Shown here in pieces: positions 23,793 to 29,860 of a stretch of DNA of 64,000 nt. Positions within the stretch are counted from its first letter, which is position 1; every line of letters starts with the position of its first letter. Where the stretch lies: assembly GCF_003018235.1 (NCBI RefSeq), contig NZ_CP027437.1. One strand, written 5' to 3'. Origin of the DNA: Escherichia coli. Lineage in GTDB: Bacteria; Pseudomonadota; Gammaproteobacteria; Enterobacterales; Enterobacteriaceae. The notes below the pieces were generated by a model. The model did not search any database. It was given only the letters and a program-made list of their open reading frames with translations, and was not told where the DNA came from. Made by a program: the position numbers and the translations under genes.

Positions 23793-23828
23793 GCCGGATG
23801 ATCGTTAATATCATCCGGCTTCATTTAC
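23793..23828 (+). terminator. Rho-independent terminator after glcA
   Basis: Perfect 10-bp inverted repeat gccggatgat / atcatccggc (23793-23802, 23810-23819) with 7-nt loop, then a T-rich tract. Confidence 0.7.
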
Positions 23829-24267: not shown

Positions 24268-27200
24268 ATGAATAAGAAATTTAAATATAAGAAATCGCTT
24301 TTAGCGGCTATTTTGAGCGCAACCCTGTTAGCCGGTTGTGATGGCGGTGGTTCCGGATCTTCCTCCGATACGCCGCCTGTAGATTCTGGAACAGGGTCTT
24401 TGCCGGAAGTGAAACCTGATCCAACACCAAACCCGGAGCCGACGCCTGAGCCAACGCCGGACCCAGAACCTACGCCGGAACCGACACCTGATCCTGAGCC
24501 AACACCAGAACCGGAGCCAGAACCTGTTCCTACGAAAACGGGTTATCTGACCCTGGGCGGAAGCCAGCGGATAACTGGTGCTACTTGTAATGGTGAATCC
24601 AGCGATGGCTTTACCTTTACGCCAGGCGACAAAGTCACCTGTGTGGCAGGGAACAACACGACAATTGCTACCTTCGACACCCAGTCAGAAGCTGCGCGTA
24701 GCCTGCGTGCGGTTGAAAAAGTGTCGTTTAGTCTTGAGGATGCGCAAGAACTGGCGGCTTCCGATGACAAGAAAAGCAATGCGGTTTCGCTGGTAACGTC
24801 CAGTAACAGCTGTCCGGCGAATACAGAACAGGTTTGCCTGTCGTTCTCCTCTGTGATCGAGAGTAAACGTTTCGACTCACTGTATAAGCAAATCGATCTG
24901 GCACCGGAAGAGTTCAAAAAGCTGGTCAATGAAGAGGTGGAAAACAATGCTGCGACCGATAAAGCGCCATCCACTCATACCTCACCGGTTGTGCCTGTCA
25001 CCACGCCGGGAACAAAACCGGATCTGAACGCTTCCTTCGTGTCGGCTAACGCGGAACAGTTTTATCAGTATCAACCTTCGGAAATCATTCTCTCCGAAGG
25101 CCGACTGGTCGATAGCCAGGGATATGGTGTTGCTGGCGTCAACTACTACACCAATTCAGGCCGTGGCGTGACAGGGGAAAATGGTGAATTTTCCTTTAGC
25201 TGGGGCGAAACCATCTCCTTTGGTATCGATACCTTTGAACTGGGTTCAGTGCGCGGCAATAAGTCGACCATTGCGCTGACTGAACTGGGTGATGAAGTTC
25301 GCGGGGCGAATATTGATCAGCTTATTCATCGCTATTCGACGACCGGGCAAAATAATACCCGTGTTGTTCCGGACGATGTACGCAAGGTCTTTGCCGAATA
25401 TCCCAACGTGATCAACGAGATTATCAATCTCTCGTTATCCAACGGTGCGACGCTGGATGAAGGTGAGCAAGTTGTTAATCTGCCAAACGAATTTATTGAG
25501 CAGTTTAAGACGGGTCAAGCCAAAGAGATCGATACCGCGATTTGTGCGAAAACCGACGGTTGTAACGAGGCTCGCTGGTTCTCGCTGACGACGCGCAATG
25601 TTAATGACGGCCAGATTCAGGGCGTTATCAACAAGCTGTGGGGCGTGGATACGAACTACAAATCTGTCAGCAAGTTCCATGTATTCCATGACTCTACCAA
25701 CTTCTATGGCAGCACGGGTAATGCGCGCGGTCAGGCGGTGGTGAATATCTCCAACGCGGCCTTCCCGATTCTGATGGCGCGTAATGATAAAAACTACTGG
25801 CTGGCGTTTGGCGAAAAACGCGCCTGGGATAAAAACGAGCTGGCGTACATTACGGAAGCGCCTTCTCTTGTTGAGCCGGAAAACGTTACGCGCGATACCG
25901 CCACCTTCAACCTGCCGTTTATCTCGTTGGGGCAAGTCGGCGATGGCAAGCTGATGGTTATCGGTAACCCGCACTACAACAGCATTTTGCGTTGTCCGAA
26001 CGGTTACAGTTGGAACGGAGGCGTTAATAAAGACGGGCAGTGTACGCTCAGCGGTGATTCAGATGACATGAAGAACTTCATGGAGAACGTGCTGCGCTAT
26101 CTGTCAAATGATCGCTGGTTGCCGGATGCAAAATCCAATATGACCGTAGGCACCAACCTGGATACTGTCTATTTCAAACGTCATGGTCAGGTTACAGGAA
26201 ACAGCGCTGAGTTCGGCTTCCATCCGGATTTTGCGGGTATCTCCGTTGAGCATTTAAGTAGCTATGGCGATCTCGACCCGCAGGAAATGCCGCTGCTGAT
26301 CCTCAACGGCTTTGAGTATGTGACTCAGGTGGGGGGCGATCCTTATGCAATCCCGCTGCGTGCAGATACCAGCAAACCGAAGCTGACTCAGCAGGATGTG
26401 ACCGATCTGATCGCCTATCTGAACAAAGGTGGATCGGTGCTGATCATGGAAAACGTGATGAGCAATCTTAAGGAAGAGAGCGCGTCTGGTTTTGTGCGTC
26501 TGTTGGATGCTGCAGGTCTGTCAATGGCACTGAACAAGTCGGTGGTGAATAACGATCCTCAAGGGTATCCGAACCGCGTTCGTCAGCAGCGCGCAACGGG
26601 CATTTGGGTCTATGAACGTTATCCTGCCGTAGACGGTGCGCTGCCGTACACCATCGATAGTAAGACAGGGGAAGTTAAGTGGAAATATCAGGTAGAAAAC
26701 AAACCTGATGACAAACCGAAGCTGGAAGTTGCCAGCTGGCTGGAAGATGTAGATGGCAAACAGGAAACGCGTTATGCCTTTATTGATGAGGCCGATCATA
26801 AAACAGAGGATTCTCTGAAGGCTGCGAAGGAGAAAATTTTCGCGGCGTTCCCGGGGCTGAAAGAGTGTACTAATCAGGCATATCACTACGAGGTCAACTG
26901 TCTGGAATATCGTCCTGGCACGGGGGTTCCGGTTACTGGTGGCATGTATGTTCCACAGTATACGCAACTAAGCCTTAACGCCGACACGGCAAAAGCGATG
27001 GTGCAGGCTGCGGATTTAGGCACCAACATTCAGCGTCTGTATCAGCATGAGCTCTACTTCCGGACCAATGGTCGCAAAGGTGAGCGTCTGAGCAGCGTCG
27101 ATCTGGAACGTCTGTACCAGAACATGTCGGTCTGGCTGTGGAACGATACGAGCTATCGTTATGAAGAAGGCAAAAATGACGAGCTGGGCTTTAAAACGTT

Positions 27201-28830
27201 CACCGAGTTCCTGAACTGCTATACCAACGATGCCTATACCGATGGCACACAGTGCTCCGCAGATCTGAAAAAATCGCTGGTCGATAACAACATGATCTAC
27301 GGTGACGGTAGCAGCAAAGCGGGCATGATGAACCCGAGCTATCCACTCAACTATATGGAAAAACCGCTGACGCGCCTGATGCTGGGCCGTTCCTGGTGGG
27401 ATCTGAACATTAAGGTTGATGTGGAGAAGTACCCAGGAGCGGTATCTGTAGGGGGAGAAGAGGTTACTGAAACCATCAGCCTGTACTCGAATCCGACCAA
27501 ATGGTTTGCAGGTAACATGCAGTCAACTGGCCTGTGGGCACCGGCTCAGAAAGAGGTCACCATTAAGTCCAATGCGAACGTTCCTGTGACCGTCACCGTG
27601 GCGCTGGCTGACGACCTGACCGGAAGAGAGAAGCATGAAGTCGCGCTGAACCGTCCGCCAAGAGTAACCAAAACGTACTCTCTGGACGCTAGCGGTACGG
27701 TGAAGTTCAAGGTGCCTTACGGTGGCCTGATTTATATCAAGGGCAATAGCTCTACCAATGAATCTGCCAGCTTCATCTTTACTGGCGTGGTAAAAGCACC
27801 GTTCTATAAAGACGGCGCATGGAAAAACGATCTGAACTCACCGGCTCCGCTGGGTGAGCTGGAATCAGACGCTTTCGTCTATACCACACCGAAGAAGAAC
27901 CTGAATGCCAGCAATTACACGGGCGGACTGGAGCAATTCGCTAACGATCTGGATACCTTTGCCAGCTCGATGAATGACTTCTACGGTCGTAATGATGAAG
28001 ACGGTAAGCACCGGATGTTTACCTATAAAAACTTGACGGGCCACAAGCATCGTTTCACCAACGATGTGCAGATCTCCATCGGTGATGCGCACTCGGGTTA
28101 TCCGGTAATGAACAGCAGCTTCTCGACGAACAGCACCACGCTGCCGACGACGCCGCTGAACGACTGGCTGATCTGGCACGAAGTTGGTCACAACGCCGCC
28201 GAAACGCCGCTGACTGTTCCTGGCGCAACTGAAGTAGCGAACAACGTGCTGGCGCTGTACATGCAGGATCGCTATCTCGGCAAGATGAACCGTGTCGCTG
28301 ACGATATTACTGTCGCGCCGGAATATCTGGAGGAGAGCAACGGTCAGGCATGGGCGCGCGGCGGTGCGGGTGACCGTCTGCTGATGTACGCGCAGCTGAA
28401 GGAGTGGGCAGAGAAAAACTTTGATATCAAACAGTGGTATCCAGAAGGCTCTCTGCCAGAGTTCTACAGCGAGCGTGAAGGGATGAAAGGCTGGAACCTG
28501 TTCCAGTTGATGCACCGTAAAGCGCGCGGCGATGAGGTTGGCAATAACAAGTTCGGCAGTAAGAACTACTGTGCTGAATCTAACGGTAACGCTGCCGACA
28601 CGCTGATGCTGTGTGCCTCCTGGGTCGCCCAGACGGATCTTTCGGAGTTCTTTAAGAAATGGAATCCGGGCGCGAATGCTTACCAGTTGCCGGGAGCGAC
28701 GGAGATGAGCTTCGAAGGCGGTGTGAGCCAGTCGGCTTACAACACGCTCGCGTCACTCGATCTGCCGAAACCGAAGCAAGGGCCGGAAACCATTAATAAG
28801 GTTACCGAATATTCGATGCCTGCTGAATAA
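24268..28830 (+). CDS. sslE: SslE/YghJ secreted lipoprotein, M60-like zinc metalloprotease (mucinase)
   Basis: 1520 aa from MNKKFKYKK; lipobox LLAGC; proline-rich PEPTPD repeats; zinc motif HEVGH at 28177-28191. Confidence 0.9.
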   Translation: MNKKFKYKKSLLAAILSATLLAGCDGGGSGSSSDTPPVDSGTGSLPEVKPDPTPNPEPTPEPTPDPEPTPEPTPDPEPTPEPEPEPVPTKTGYLTLGGSQRITGATCNGESSDGFTFTPGDKVTCVAGNNTTIATFDTQSEAARSLRAVEKVSFSLEDAQELAASDDKKSNAVSLVTSSNSCPANTEQVCLSFSSVIESKRFDSLYKQIDLAPEEFKKLVNEEVENNAATDKAPSTHTSPVVPVTTPGTKPDLNASFVSANAEQFYQYQPSEIILSEGRLVDSQGYGVAGVNYYTNSGRGVTGENGEFSFSWGETISFGIDTFELGSVRGNKSTIALTELGDEVRGANIDQLIHRYSTTGQNNTRVVPDDVRKVFAEYPNVINEIINLSLSNGATLDEGEQVVNLPNEFIEQFKTGQAKEIDTAICAKTDGCNEARWFSLTTRNVNDGQIQGVINKLWGVDTNYKSVSKFHVFHDSTNFYGSTGNARGQAVVNISNAAFPILMARNDKNYWLAFGEKRAWDKNELAYITEAPSLVEPENVTRDTATFNLPFISLGQVGDGKLMVIGNPHYNSILRCPNGYSWNGGVNKDGQCTLSGDSDDMKNFMENVLRYLSNDRWLPDAKSNMTVGTNLDTVYFKRHGQVTGNSAEFGFHPDFAGISVEHLSSYGDLDPQEMPLLILNGFEYVTQVGGDPYAIPLRADTSKPKLTQQDVTDLIAYLNKGGSVLIMENVMSNLKEESASGFVRLLDAAGLSMALNKSVVNNDPQGYPNRVRQQRATGIWVYERYPAVDGALPYTIDSKTGEVKWKYQVENKPDDKPKLEVASWLEDVDGKQETRYAFIDEADHKTEDSLKAAKEKIFAAFPGLKECTNQAYHYEVNCLEYRPGTGVPVTGGMYVPQYTQLSLNADTAKAMVQAADLGTNIQRLYQHELYFRTNGRKGERLSSVDLERLYQNMSVWLWNDTSYRYEEGKNDELGFKTFTEFLNCYTNDAYTDGTQCSADLKKSLVDNNMIYGDGSSKAGMMNPSYPLNYMEKPLTRLMLGRSWWDLNIKVDVEKYPGAVSVGGEEVTETISLYSNPTKWFAGNMQSTGLWAPAQKEVTIKSNANVPVTVTVALADDLTGREKHEVALNRPPRVTKTYSLDASGTVKFKVPYGGLIYIKGNSSTNESASFIFTGVVKAPFYKDGAWKNDLNSPAPLGELESDAFVYTTPKKNLNASNYTGGLEQFANDLDTFASSMNDFYGRNDEDGKHRMFTYKNLTGHKHRFTNDVQISIGDAHSGYPVMNSSFSTNSTTLPTTPLNDWLIWHEVGHNAAETPLTVPGATEVANNVLALYMQDRYLGKMNRVADDITVAPEYLEESNGQAWARGGAGDRLLMYAQLKEWAEKNFDIKQWYPEGSLPEFYSEREGMKGWNLFQLMHRKARGDEVGNNKFGSKNYCAESNGNAADTLMLCASWVAQTDLSEFFKKWNPGANAYQLPGATEMSFEGGVSQSAYNTLASLDLPKPKQGPETINKVTEYSMPAE
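24409..24525 (+). repeat. In-frame tandem repeat encoding a proline-rich PEPTP(D/E) linker in SslE
   Basis: Repeated ccngaacc(n)acnccn units encoding PDPTPNPEPTPEPTPDPEPTPEPTPDPEPTPEPEPEP. Confidence 0.7.
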
Positions 28831-28985: not shown

Positions 28986-29795
28986 ATGTTTTTTGATGTT
29001 TTTCAGCAATACCCCGCGGCGATGCCCGTCCTGGCTACCGTCGGAGGATTGATTATCGGCAGTTTTTTGAATGTGGTGATTTGGCGTTACCCCATCATGC
29101 TGCGCCAACAAATGGCGGAGTTTCACGGTGAAATGCCGAGTACGCAGTCAAAAATAAGCCTGGCGCTGCCACGCTCGCACTGTCCGCATTGCCAGCAGAC
29201 TATCCGCGTTCGTGACAATATTCCGCTGCTCTCCTGGCTGATGCTCAAAGGGCGCTGCCGCGACTGTCAGGCGAAAATCAGCAAGCGTTATCCGCTGGTG
29301 GAGTTATTGACGGCACTCGCTTTTTTGCTGGCGAGCCTGGTGTGGCCGGAAAGTGGATGGGGGCTGGCGGTGATGATATTATCCGCCTGGCTGATTGCCG
29401 CGAGTGTCATCGACCTCGATAACCAATGGCTGCCCGATGTCTTTACTCAGGGCGTATTGTGGACGGGGCTGATTGCGGCATGGGCGCAACAGAGTCCGTT
29501 AACACTACAAGATGCAGTCACCGGCGTCCTGGTGGGGTTTATCACTTTTTACTCTCTGCGCTGGATAGCCGGAATAGTTCTGCGTAAAGAAGCATTAGGC
29601 ATGGGCGATGTATTATTGTTCGCTGCGTTAGGTAGTTGGGTGGGGCCGTTGTCGCTGCCCAATGTTGCTTTAATCGCCTCATGCTGCGGCCTGATATATG
29701 CCGTTATTACAAAAAGAGGATCAACCACACTGCCTTTTGGACCGTGTTTAAGTCTGGGCGGTATAGCAACACTTTATCTACAGGCATTGTTTTAA
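28986..29795 (+). CDS. pppA: Prepilin peptidase (leader peptidase/N-methyltransferase)
   Basis: 269-aa polytopic ORF with the cytoplasmic tetracysteine motif CPHC...CRDC typical of PilD/GspO. Confidence 0.85.
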
Positions 29796-29860
29796 TGATA
29801 ACCACGTCATTATCAAAGTGACATTTTAACTCTTATTAATAACCTTAGAGATTATTTACC

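What the first reader, a model, noticed from the sequence alone, without database searches (positions are those of the whole stretch)
24409..24525. Proline-rich tandem repeat at the SslE N-terminus
Repeated PEPTPD-type units are encoded by near-identical short DNA repeats just after the lipobox. Such repeats can vary in copy number by slippage, changing linker length of this surface-exposed or secreted mucinase and possibly its antigenicity.
Basis: seen in the sequence. Interest (0 to 1): 0.35.

Follow-up and report, generated by a model that had tools for sequence, protein, structure and literature searches.

The report
Proline-rich spacer of the SslE lipoprotein
This is the already described flexible, proline-rich spacer that separates the lipid anchor of the E. 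coli mucinase SslE from its folded body; its length varies a little between strains through small in-frame deletions or duplications, but it is not a fast-switching repeat.

Summary
The repeat is real. Window 24415-24531 encodes a perfect Pro-X alternation of 39 residues (P50-P88) in sslE (CDS 24268-28830). It is unique in the window and absent from shuffles. The gene is SslE/YghJ (NCBIfam 3489 bits) and sits upstream of the gspO-S-C..M type II secretion operon.

The DNA copies are not near-identical: the 30-nt period matches 75%, the longest exact repeat is 11 nt, and two identical PEPTPDPEPT units differ at all ten wobble positions. The repeat also starts 25 residues after the lipobox Cys24, behind a Gly/Ser-rich segment.

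The slippage idea is partly supported. About 4,090 complete E. coli genomes carry the region. About 84% have the window's length and about 13% (545 records) have -6 nt. About 1.4% have -12 nt and 32 records have +6 nt. Rare alleles have -18, -54 or -60 nt. Every indel is in frame and flanked by 3-11 nt of microhomology. The alleles are clonally stable, so this is not a contingency locus.

AlphaFold gives no structure before residue 90. Distant SslE/AcfD homologues all carry Pro-rich acidic linkers of different sequence and length. The literature already calls it a "flexible linker" and a "poly proline-rich domain" recognised by antibodies. The finding is ordinary and already known.

The parts
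24268..28830 (+). sslE (yghJ) coding sequence, 1520 aa lipoprotein M60 metalloprotease / mucinase
   Evidence: Translation. NCBIfam NF037973 at 3489 bits against cutoff 3000. Pfam DUF4092, M60-like_N and Peptidase_M60. Matches full-length PDB chain 23px_A, 'Putative lipoprotein AcfD homolog'.
24268..24339 (+). Lipoprotein signal peptide with lipobox LLAGC; Cys24 (24337-24339) is the lipidated residue and is followed by Asp25
   Evidence: Read directly from the translation. Cys24 is invariant across 18 family members.
24340..24414 (+). Gly/Ser-rich flexible segment (DGGGSGSSSDTPPVDSGTGSL) plus PEVK, lying between the lipid anchor and the Pro-X repeat
   Evidence: Translation. AlphaFold pLDDT is 28-48 with no secondary structure.
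24415..24531 (+). (Pro-X)19-Pro repeat, residues 50-88, X = E/T/D/N/V; net charge -11; four 10-aa units in register
   Evidence: TRF. Periodic CCN pattern unique in the window. Codon table of the units. No secondary structure in AlphaFold.
24436..24458 (+). Best DNA tandem pair (GAGCCGACGCC / GAGCCAACGCC, period 12, 90% match); one unit (PEPT) is lost in the -12 nt alleles
   Evidence: TRF row 2. Alignments of L007 and L009. Microhomology ACGCC.
24499..24507 (+). CCAACACCA: site of the common -6 nt allele (loss of CCAACA = Pro-Thr between two CCA codons)
   Evidence: L005 and L012 against the window. 545 records at >=99% identity to that allele.
24454..24479 (+). Two ACGCCGGA 8-mers 18 nt apart; the -18 nt allele (strain MB50) deletes one period
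   Evidence: L014.
24463..24525 (+). Two CCAGAACCT 9-mers 54 nt apart; the -54 nt (-18 aa) allele of six UPEC-type strains deletes the interval
   Evidence: L011. 7 records with the exact allele. Coordinates.
24487..24497 (+). CCTGATCCTGA: the 6-nt unit CCTGAT is duplicated in the +6 nt (+Pro-Asp) allele
   Evidence: L010. 32 records at >=99% identity.
24538..24558 (+). Start of the first folded domain (TGYLTLG...), the conserved right-hand boundary of the linker
   Evidence: First AlphaFold strand is E90-96, with pLDDT about 90 from residue 91. The family model NF037974 starts at residue 106. TKTGYL is conserved in all alleles and in the plasmid copies.
27784..28662 (+). Peptidase M60 catalytic domain (HEVGH at residue 1304)
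   Evidence: Pfam PF13402, residues 1173-1465. Motif position.
28986..40750 (+). Type II secretion operon gspO (prepilin peptidase), gspS (pilotin), gspC-gspM, which exports SslE
   Evidence: Pfam hits to A24 peptidase, T2SSS_2, T2SSC, Secretin, T2SSE, T2SSF, T2SSG, T2SSK, T2SSL and T2SSM. Operon order as described in bioRxiv 10.64898/2026.05.07.723501.

Best explanation
The segment encodes a non-globular, acidic (Pro-X)n spacer. Together with the preceding Gly/Ser-rich stretch it forms a tether of about 65 residues between the triacylated Cys24 and the first folded domain of SslE, which starts at residue ~90.

Shown here:
- The gene is SslE.
- The segment has no predicted structure.
- A Pro-rich acidic linker of variable length and sequence is present in every family member examined.
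- Natural in-frame deletions of up to 20 of the 39 residues leave the reading frame intact.

Inferred:
- The alternating prolines and eleven acidic side chains keep the chain extended. At about 0.3 nm per residue the repeat would span about 12 nm.
- This would hold the 160 kDa enzyme away from the membrane or LPS surface and leave it free to reach the secretin and, later, mucin.
- Only the composition and an approximate length would be under selection.

Because the peptide is repetitive, the DNA contains many short direct repeats of 3-11 nt. Occasional slipped-strand or microhomology-mediated events then produce in-frame length alleles, which are inherited clonally or moved by recombination. 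Balanced use of synonymous codons keeps the DNA copies dissimilar and the rate of such events low.
For: Identity and context.

Repeat reality.

No fold: AlphaFold on an 18-sequence alignment shows no secondary structure in residues 1-89 (pLDDT 28-68). The first strand is at 90-96 with pLDDT about 90.

Family-wide feature: homologues at 34-56% identity carry 28-59 aa linkers with 16-34% Pro and 12-25% Asp+Glu, but with unrelated motifs. Plasmid-borne sslE copies from E. coli, E. albertii and E. marmotae keep the strict Pro-X alternation at 25, 33, 37 and 47 residues.

Length alleles and their junction microhomologies.

Frequencies:
- -6 nt: 545 records.
- -12 nt: 40 records of one sequence type and 8 of another, plus a few intermediates.
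- +6 nt: 32 records.
- -54 nt: 7 records.
- Three systematic samples give 13% for -6 nt.

Codon scrambling: Pro codons in the linker are CCT 7, CCA 7, CCG 6, against CCG 43 of 66 in the rest of the gene (Fisher p=0.009). Same-codon pairs are about half the expected number.

Literature: PMC8881592 labels the region 'L: flexible linker' / 'disordered region' and removes it for structural work. PMC10637626 calls residues 44-90 'a poly proline-rich domain' that appears as an undefined tube in the AlphaFold model.
Against: No experiment or computation here shows that spacing is the function, or that length matters. Whether the shortened alleles (-18 or -20 aa) still give surface-exposed, secreted, active SslE is unknown.

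AlphaFold pLDDT rises to 57-68 over residues 61-89, so some local order (a polyproline-II-like rod) is possible but was not demonstrated.

The codon-scrambling signal is modest. Most single-lag p values are 0.03-0.1, and it is not significant when the linker's own codon frequencies are permuted, apart from a weak low-tail tendency at lag 12. It could be a by-product of age and of the loss of identical copies.

The census uses BLAST identity bands and samples rather than extraction of every allele, so rare alleles may be missed.
Confidence: 0.8

Rival explanations
1. Contingency locus: the repeat is a hypermutable simple-sequence tract that changes copy number rapidly by slippage, giving fast variation of linker length and antigenicity.
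For: Length polymorphism exists, and every indel junction has microhomology. The -12 nt change occurs on at least two sequence backgrounds. One strain has a 1-nt deletion in a C-run that frameshifts the gene.
Against: - The DNA units are only 67-90% identical and the longest exact repeat is 11 nt.
- All but one change are multiples of 3, so there is no on/off switching.
- About 84% of roughly 4,090 genomes share one length.
- 545 records carry the same -6 nt allele at >=99% identity.
- Length differences inside ST131 and between BL21 derivatives come with many linked SNPs or an identical K-12 protein, which means allele replacement.
Confidence: 0.04
2. Mucin-like glycosylated stalk or immunodominant region: the Thr residues in the Pro-rich context are O-glycosylated. 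The segment would then act mainly as a glycan-bearing, antibody-attracting (possibly decoy) epitope. This is not exclusive of a spacer role.
For: Secreted YghJ carries 54 O-glycosylated residues by BEMAP (PMC8417355). Rabbits immunised with glycosylated YghJ strongly enrich proline-rich motifs of residues 44-90, while non-glycosylated antigen gives weak and different patterns (PMC10637626). The linker has six or seven Thr residues flanked by Pro.
Against: No glycosite was mapped inside residues 25-90. The first glycopeptide listed starts at residue 91. The only tryptic peptide covering the repeat (residues 50-90, 41 aa, very acidic) was probably not observable, so the data are silent on this point. 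Distant homologues have linkers with few Ser/Thr residues (7-13% in several), so glycosylation cannot be the family-wide reason for the linker.
Confidence: 0.2
3. [quoted passage not shown]
For: SslE is found both surface-associated and secreted (title and abstract of PMC5012682). The boundaries LPEVKP and PEPEPVPTKTGYL are conserved in all Escherichia alleles, including the plasmid copies. Peptides identified from secreted YghJ begin at residue 91.
Against: The sequence is not conserved in the wider family, and only the composition is shared. Natural alleles lack up to half of it. Pro-X repeats are poor protease substrates (general knowledge). No direct data exist.
Confidence: 0.08
4. Chance low-complexity sequence or assembly artefact with no biological meaning.
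For: None beyond the general unreliability of repeats in assemblies.
Against: The identical 493-nt sequence occurs in an independent complete genome (H1, 100%). The same region is present in about 4,090 complete genomes. The Pro-X pattern never occurs in shuffles. The feature is conserved across species.
Confidence: 0.01

Closest known systems
SslE 'L' flexible linker (Corsini et al. 2022, PMC8881592), also called the 'poly proline-rich domain, aa 44-90' of YghJ (PMC10637626)
   Same: It is the same segment of the same protein. It lies between the lipidation motif and the NT region, is described as disordered or flexible, is removed for structural work, and is recognised by antibodies.
   Different: Nothing structural differs. 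The papers read here do not describe the length alleles, their frequencies, the junction microhomologies or the synonymous-codon scrambling.
TonB proline-rich spacer ((Glu-Pro)n-(Lys-Pro)n) and similar Pro-X hinges of envelope proteins (own knowledge)
   Same: Alternating Pro-X dipeptides (SslE ends in PEPEPEPVP) form an extended, non-globular connector between a membrane anchor and a functional domain. Shortening is tolerated.
   Different: There is no basic Lys-Pro half and no homology. SslE's spacer is anchored by lipid rather than by a transmembrane helix, and after secretion it ends up outside the cell.
N-terminal tethers of surface lipoproteins and of the type II-secreted lipoprotein pullulanase PulA (own knowledge)
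   Same: A low-complexity Gly/Ser/Pro-rich stretch follows the lipidated Cys of a large enzyme exported by a type II system. Asp is at position +2 in the Escherichia protein, as in PulA.
   Different: The sequence motif differs (the PulA region is collagen-like Gly-X-Pro, recalled from memory). Asp+2 is absent from the distant SslE/AcfD homologues examined.
Trypanosome procyclin EP repeats (Pfam PF05887 Trypan_PARP) and staphylococcal Ser-Asp repeat adhesins (NF033845 ClfB)
   Same: Acidic dipeptide repeats form an extended stalk on a lipid- or wall-anchored surface protein. Weak profile hits cover residues 40-88, and weak DNA hits to Sdr genes appear on plasmids.
   Different: The scores are far below the family cutoffs (32 against 100 bits; 27 against 999 bits). 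The resemblance is compositional only, with no homology.
Phase-variable simple-sequence contingency loci (for example in Neisseria and Haemophilus surface protein genes; own knowledge)
   Same: Repeat-mediated length change in a gene for a surface antigen.
   Different: The units are imperfect, the changes are in frame and rare, the alleles are clonally stable, and there is no on/off switching.

Membership tests
SslE (NCBIfam NF037973, lipoprotein metalloprotease SslE) | Full-length match above the curated cutoff | tested here: met
   3489.4 bits against cutoff 3000, residues 1-1520 on profile 1-1519.
SslE (NCBIfam NF037973, lipoprotein metalloprotease SslE) | Lipoprotein signal peptide with a lipobox Cys | tested here: met
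   LLAGC with Cys24. Cys24 is invariant in the 18-sequence family alignment.
SslE (NCBIfam NF037973, lipoprotein metalloprotease SslE) | C-terminal M60 zinc-metalloprotease domain with HEXXH | tested here: met
   PF13402 with E=1.9e-36 over residues 1173-1465. HEVGH at residue 1304.
SslE (NCBIfam NF037973, lipoprotein metalloprotease SslE) | Located directly upstream of the dedicated gspO-S-C..M type II secretion operon | tested here: met
   Ten downstream ORFs hit T2SS Pfam families. glcA lies upstream, as in other E. coli genomes.
Flexible / extended Pro-rich spacer (tether) between anchor and domain | No globular fold in the segment | tested here: met
   AlphaFold shows no secondary structure in residues 1-89, with pLDDT 28-68. 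The fold starts at residue 90. The literature agrees.
Flexible / extended Pro-rich spacer (tether) between anchor and domain | Composition conserved but sequence and length not conserved among homologues | tested here: met
   Linkers are 28-59 aa with 16-34% Pro and carry different motifs. Escherichia plasmid copies have 25-47 aa.
Flexible / extended Pro-rich spacer (tether) between anchor and domain | Function tolerates length change | tested here: inconclusive
   Intact ORFs with -18 and -20 aa exist in clinical strains, but their SslE function was not measured.
Flexible / extended Pro-rich spacer (tether) between anchor and domain | Extended (polyproline-II) conformation that provides physical stand-off | not testable with these tools
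   Needs SAXS, NMR, CD or single-molecule measurement of the full-length lipoprotein.
Contingency (phase-variable) simple-sequence repeat | Tract of identical tandem DNA units | tested here: not met
   Best tract is 1.9 copies at 90%. The 30-nt period matches 75%. The longest exact repeat is 11 nt.
Contingency (phase-variable) simple-sequence repeat | Copy-number change switches expression on/off (a frame shift or a change in promoter spacing) | tested here: not met
   Seven length classes are all multiples of 3. The single frameshift is a 1-nt loss in a C3 run in one strain.
Contingency (phase-variable) simple-sequence repeat | High variability among closely related isolates | tested here: not met
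   545 records share one -6 nt allele at >=99% identity. All sampled K-12 derivatives have the same length. The BL21 discrepancy is explained by a K-12 allele. The test is indirect, because no within-clone phylogeny was built.
Trypan_PARP (Pfam PF05887) / MSCRAMM ClfB (NF033845) | Score above the curated cutoff | tested here: not met
   32.2 against 100 bits and 27.1 against 999 bits. These are low-complexity matches only.
O-glycosylated Pro/Thr-rich (mucin-like) linker | Mapped O-glycans on the linker Ser/Thr residues | not testable with these tools
   The published BEMAP map begins at residue 91. Glycosylation-dependent antibody recognition of residues 44-90 is suggestive only.

The most novel reading that the evidence does not exclude
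The even, position-alternating use of synonymous Pro, Glu, Thr and Asp codons could be maintained, by selection or by continual purging of identical copies, to stabilise a spacer that would otherwise be slippage-prone. The remaining length alleles would then have functional consequences. In particular, the -18/-20 aa forms in UPEC/APEC-type strains and the -2 aa form fixed in Nissle, BL21 and part of ST131 might shift the balance between surface-tethered and released SslE. They might also change the glycan-dependent antibody recognition of a vaccine candidate antigen.
Probability: 0.12. Interest if true: 0.35.

Novelty: already known. Interest (0 to 1): 0.12.

Why it matters
SslE/YghJ is a broadly conserved E. 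coli vaccine candidate and mucinase. Knowing that its N-terminal proline-rich region comes in a few discrete length alleles is useful bookkeeping for antigen design and for serology with linker peptides. The modal length is found in about 84% of genomes, -2 aa in about 13%, and rarer forms go down to -20 aa. The same information helps interpret sslE typing. It does not change the understanding of the protein, since the segment is already treated as a disposable flexible linker. The wobble-scrambled coding of identical peptide units is a small, tidy example of how repetitive proteins can be encoded by non-repetitive DNA.

Tried and rejected
1. The N-terminal protein search returned only truncated or frameshifted fragments (44 hits). 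These showed the same three linker lengths and nothing new. It was not useful as a census.

2. I considered reading allele lengths from BLAST identity bands with a single query. I rejected this because SNP-rich backgrounds (L008/L009 type) overlap the bands of indel alleles. I used allele-specific queries (>=99% band) plus record spans in systematic 'spread' samples instead.

3. The +3 and -3 nt length classes in the first search looked like repeat variation. They map outside the linker, to a Gly-Asp insertion at residue 105 and an Asn deletion at residue 129.

4. The BL21(DE3) versus BL21-RIPL length difference looked like within-lineage slippage. BL21-RIPL in fact encodes the K-12 protein WP_001034469.1, so this is allele replacement.

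5. The deletion in L011 first appeared to be 60 nt. The span arithmetic and the junction analysis give 54 nt.

6. The profile hits to procyclin (PARP) and ClfB, and the PDB hits to circumsporozoite protein, PR20 and others, are compositional and far below the cutoffs.

7. The promoter/terminator scan around the 5' end found nothing relevant to the repeat.

8. The codon-permutation null showed no excess DNA-level repeat identity at any lag. The idea that the units are recent DNA duplications was therefore dropped.

9. SNP diversity in the repeat (0.039 per site) is not higher than in the flanking coding sequence. It is not a substitution hot spot.
Full report
**What is at the coordinates**

The window carries an ORF at 24268-28830 (+), with ATG at 24268 and a product of 1520 aa. 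It matches NCBIfam NF037973 'lipoprotein metalloprotease SslE' end to end at 3489 bits, against a cutoff of 3000. It has the Pfam domains DUF4092, M60-like_N and Peptidase_M60. It also matches the full-length PDB chain 23px_A, 'Putative lipoprotein AcfD homolog', which is the K-12 allele. Upstream lies glcA. Downstream lie gspO, gspS and gspC-M of the dedicated type II secretion system, as described for sslE in bioRxiv 10.64898/2026.05.07.723501.

**Anatomy of the N-terminus**

| Residues | Window coordinates | Feature |
|---|---|---|
| 1-24 | 24268-24339 | Signal peptide ending in the lipobox LLAGC; Cys24 at 24337-24339 |
| 25 | 24340-24342 | Asp at position +2 |
| 25-45 | 24340-24402 | Gly/Ser-rich stretch DGGGSGSSSDTPPVDSGTGSL |
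| 46-49 | 24403-24414 | PEVK |
| 50-88 | 24415-24531 | Strict Pro-X alternation of 39 residues |
| 89 onward | 24532 onward | TKTGYLTLGG, leading into the first folded domain |

In a 10-residue register the repeat reads PDPTPNPEPT / PEPTPDPEPT / PEPTPDPEPT / PEPEPEPVP.

**Is the repeat real, and is the DNA repeat 'near-identical'?**

Tandem Repeats Finder reports three overlapping descriptions:
- period 30, 2.5 copies, 75% match;
- period 12, 1.9 copies, 90% match (24436-24458);
- period 18, 2.7 copies, 70% match.

A CCNNNN periodic pattern of ten units matches only here in the 64 kb window. It gives 11 overlapping hits and none in 100 dinucleotide-preserving shuffles. The peptide repeat is far beyond chance.

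The DNA copies are not near-identical.
- The longest exact direct repeat is 11 nt.
- Identity at lag 12 is 0.58 and at lag 30 is 0.70.
- Both values are lower than expected if the same peptide were encoded with the gene's own codon usage. The null values are 0.653±0.030 and 0.758±0.032, with P(null>=observed) of 0.997 and 0.98.
- Proline codons in the linker are CCT 7, CCA 7 and CCG 6. The rest of sslE uses CCG for 43 of 66 prolines (Fisher p=0.009).
- The two identical PEPTPDPEPT units differ at all ten third positions. Same-codon pairs at repeat lags are about half the expected number in the window allele and in other alleles. In allele L008 the count at lag 10 is 1 of 22 against 10 expected.

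When the linker's own codons are permuted, no lag shows excess identity and only lag 12 tends towards the low tail (P(null>=obs) 0.97). The effect is therefore mainly one of balanced codon choice. The repetition is kept at the protein level, and the DNA is degenerate.

**Does copy number vary between sslE alleles?**

The 5' 493 nt of sslE is found in 4,091 of 5,426 complete E. coli genomes.

Record spans in a systematic sample showed total length classes of +3, 0, -3, -9 and -15 nt. I fetched one representative of each class and aligned them. The ±3 nt changes lie outside the linker, at a Gly-Asp insertion at residue 105 and an Asn deletion at residue 129. The -9 and -15 classes contain linker deletions of 6 nt and 12 nt. 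A query restricted to the linker and its flanks (24337-24564) also revealed +6 nt and much shorter alleles. Further representatives were fetched and analysed.

| Length class | Event | Flanking microhomology | Where found | Count |
|---|---|---|---|---|
| 0 nt (39 residues) | modal length | n/a | window, K-12 and most others | about 84% |
| -6 nt | loss of CCAACA (Pro-Thr) | CCA (3 nt) | part of ST131, a Nissle derivative, BL21(DE3) | 545 records at >=99% identity to this allele |
| -12 nt | loss of one PEPT unit of the 12-nt tandem pair | ACGCC (5 nt) | ATCC 8739 and others | 40 records of one sequence type, 8 of a divergent type, a few intermediates |
| +6 nt | duplication of CCTGAT (Pro-Asp) | 11 nt of repeat context | strain ERP001 and others | 32 records |
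| -18 nt | deletion of one 18-nt period | ACGCCGGA (8 nt) | strain MB50 | 1 seen |
| -54 nt | deletion of one 54-nt interval | CCAGAACCT (9 nt) | six UPEC-type strains | 7 records |
| -60 nt | deletion of one 60-nt interval | GAGCCGACACC (11 nt) | APEC BEN2908 | 1 seen |

The 13% figure for -6 nt is matched by three systematic samples: 7 of 59, 8 of 59 and 8 of 58 rows. One strain has a 1-nt loss in a C3 run that frameshifts the gene and is annotated as a pseudogene.

All other changes are in frame, and every junction shows microhomology. This is the signature of slipped-strand mispairing or short-homology deletion.

**The variation is not fast**

- About 84% of genomes share the modal length.
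- The main variant is a fixed allele shared at >=99% identity by hundreds of genomes.
- All sampled K-12 derivatives are identical in length.
- The two apparent within-lineage differences are allele replacements. ST131 strains with and without the -6 nt change differ at many linked sites across the 493 nt (99.2% against 94.9% identity to the window).
- BL21-RIPL encodes exactly the K-12 protein WP_001034469.1, whereas BL21(DE3) has the -6 nt allele. That is consistent with introgressed K-12 DNA, possibly carried with endA. The endA link is my own knowledge and was not tested.
- SNP diversity in the repeat (0.039) is no higher than in the flanking coding sequence.

Three defining features of a contingency locus were tested and not met: identical units, on/off switching, and variability among close relatives.

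**What the segment is physically**

AlphaFold2 on residues 1-330 with an 18-sequence family alignment gives no secondary structure before residue 90. pLDDT is 28-48 for residues 1-60 and 57-68 for residues 61-89. The first strand is at residues 90-96, and pLDDT is about 90 from residue 91. The family-level NCBIfam model starts only at residue 106.

A search of 1.84 billion representative proteins with residues 90-700 found full-length SslE/AcfD-family lipoproteins at 34-56% identity. Each has a linker of 28-59 residues between its lipobox Cys and the first conserved domain. These linkers contain 16-34% Pro and 12-25% Asp+Glu, but they carry unrelated motifs such as PPIEPPVEPPLPPEE, PPIEIPPDIPPPIEIPPDIPPP and IPEIPPNVPSIPIVPIEPI.

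Plasmid-borne sslE copies keep the strict Pro-X alternation and the boundaries LP(E/D)VKP and PEPEPVPTKTGYL, with 37, 33, 47 and 25 residues. They come from E. coli and E. albertii IncF plasmids and from E. marmotae and E. coli rep_cluster_2313 plasmids. The 25-residue form is the 47-residue form minus 22 residues.

Conserved composition and position, together with free sequence and length, is the pattern expected of a spacer.

**Most likely mechanism**

*Shown:* the segment is a non-globular, acidic Pro-X tract between the lipid anchor and the folded body of a type II-secreted lipoprotein, and its length can change in nature without breaking the reading frame.

*Inferred:* the alternating prolines and 11 acidic residues keep it extended, at roughly 12 nm for the repeat and up to about 20 nm for residues 25-89. 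This would let the 160 kDa enzyme stand clear of the membrane or LPS, so selection acts on composition and approximate length only. The many 3-11 nt direct repeats that a repetitive peptide imposes on its DNA occasionally cause in-frame indels. Diverse synonymous codons keep that rate low. Whether the codon diversity is selected, or simply what survives after identical copies delete, is open.

**Rival explanations**

- *Glycosylated stalk or immunodominant epitope.* This is not exclusive of the spacer role and has indirect literature support. Secreted YghJ has 54 mapped O-glycosites (PMC8417355). Rabbits immunised with glycosylated YghJ strongly enrich proline-rich motifs from residues 44-90 (PMC10637626). 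The glycosite map starts at residue 91, and the linker lies in a 41-residue tryptic peptide that was probably invisible to the method. Several distant homologues also have few Ser/Thr residues in their linkers.
- *Secretion signal or cleavage site.* This is unsupported by conservation outside Escherichia.
- *Artefact.* This is excluded by the identical sequence in independent genomes.

**Comparison with what is known**

The segment is already described. Corsini et al. [quoted passage not shown] PMC10637626 calls residues 44-90 'a poly proline-rich domain' that appears as an undefined tube in the AlphaFold model.

In function it resembles the TonB Glu-Pro/Lys-Pro spacer and the N-terminal tethers of surface lipoproteins such as pullulanase. 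Those comparisons rest on my own knowledge. The profile hits to procyclin EP repeats and ClfB Ser-Asp repeats are far below their cutoffs and are compositional only.

What I could not find in the papers read is the list of length alleles with frequencies, the junction microhomologies and the wobble scrambling. These are minor additions.

**Verdict**

The peptide repeat is real, but the DNA repeats are not near-identical and do not lie immediately after the lipobox.
Length polymorphism by slippage-type events exists, but it is limited and clonally stable, and its functional effect is untested.
- The feature is already known and ordinary.
- Interest is 0.12.

Noticed in passing
Proteins P0134 and P0135 (homologous to window 24268-24600): The protein library holds SslE N-termini in which every Pro, Ser and Thr reads as Phe, Leu, Met or Ile (for example LEVKFDLILNLELMFELML). 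This is the pattern expected from C-to-T converted reads (bisulfite-like or damaged DNA) that were assembled and translated, so it is an artefact in the public data.
   Followed up: no
L012 (BL21(DE3)) versus L013 (BL21-RIPL); window 24268-24760 equivalent: BL21-RIPL encodes the K-12 SslE protein WP_001034469.1, whereas BL21(DE3) has a different allele with the -6 nt linker. That BL21 derivative therefore carries K-12 DNA at this locus, possibly co-transduced with endA. The endA explanation is from memory and was not tested.
   Followed up: partly
L017-L020 (plasmid loci): Complete sslE genes sit on plasmids: IncFIA/FIB/FIC conjugative plasmids of E. coli and E. albertii, and rep_cluster_2313 plasmids of E. 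marmotae and E. coli. Five places on plasmids were also counted among the complete E. coli genomes.
   Followed up: partly
L016 (strain NRZ14408; equivalent to window 24430-24436, AACCCGG): A 1-nt deletion in a C3 run inside the linker frameshifts sslE, and RefSeq annotates the gene as a frameshifted pseudogene. The same change is in record LT599825. Whether it is real or a sequencing error was not resolved.
   Followed up: partly
Hit H236, strain H3 (NZ_CP010167.1): The match to the sslE 5' region ends early and abuts an IS21-family transposase gene (istA). This suggests an insertion-sequence disruption of sslE in that strain.
   Followed up: no
Window 24268-24760, as query against complete E. 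coli genomes: 1,335 of 5,426 complete E. coli genomes (25%) have no match to the sslE 5' end, so the gene is common but not universal.
   Followed up: no
Window 24580-24582 and 24652-24654 (residues 105 and 129): There are two further 3-nt indel polymorphisms just downstream of the linker: a Gly-Asp-Ile versus Gly-Ala change with one extra residue at position 105, and Asn-Asn versus Asn at position 129. They separate the major sslE allele groups and account for most of the length differences in the first BLAST table.
   Followed up: yes
Window 24340-24342 (Asp25): Asp follows the lipidated Cys. In E. coli this is the classical inner-membrane retention (Lol-avoidance) residue and is also found in the type II-secreted lipoprotein PulA (own knowledge). 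Distant SslE/AcfD homologues have Gly, Phe, Leu, Ile, His, Lys or Asn at this position instead.
   Followed up: partly
Window 23793-23819: A perfect 10-bp GC-rich hairpin (GCCGGATGAT...ATCATCCGGC) lies just after glcA and scores as terminator-like on both strands. It resembles a REP-type element or a bidirectional terminator between glcA and sslE.
   Followed up: no
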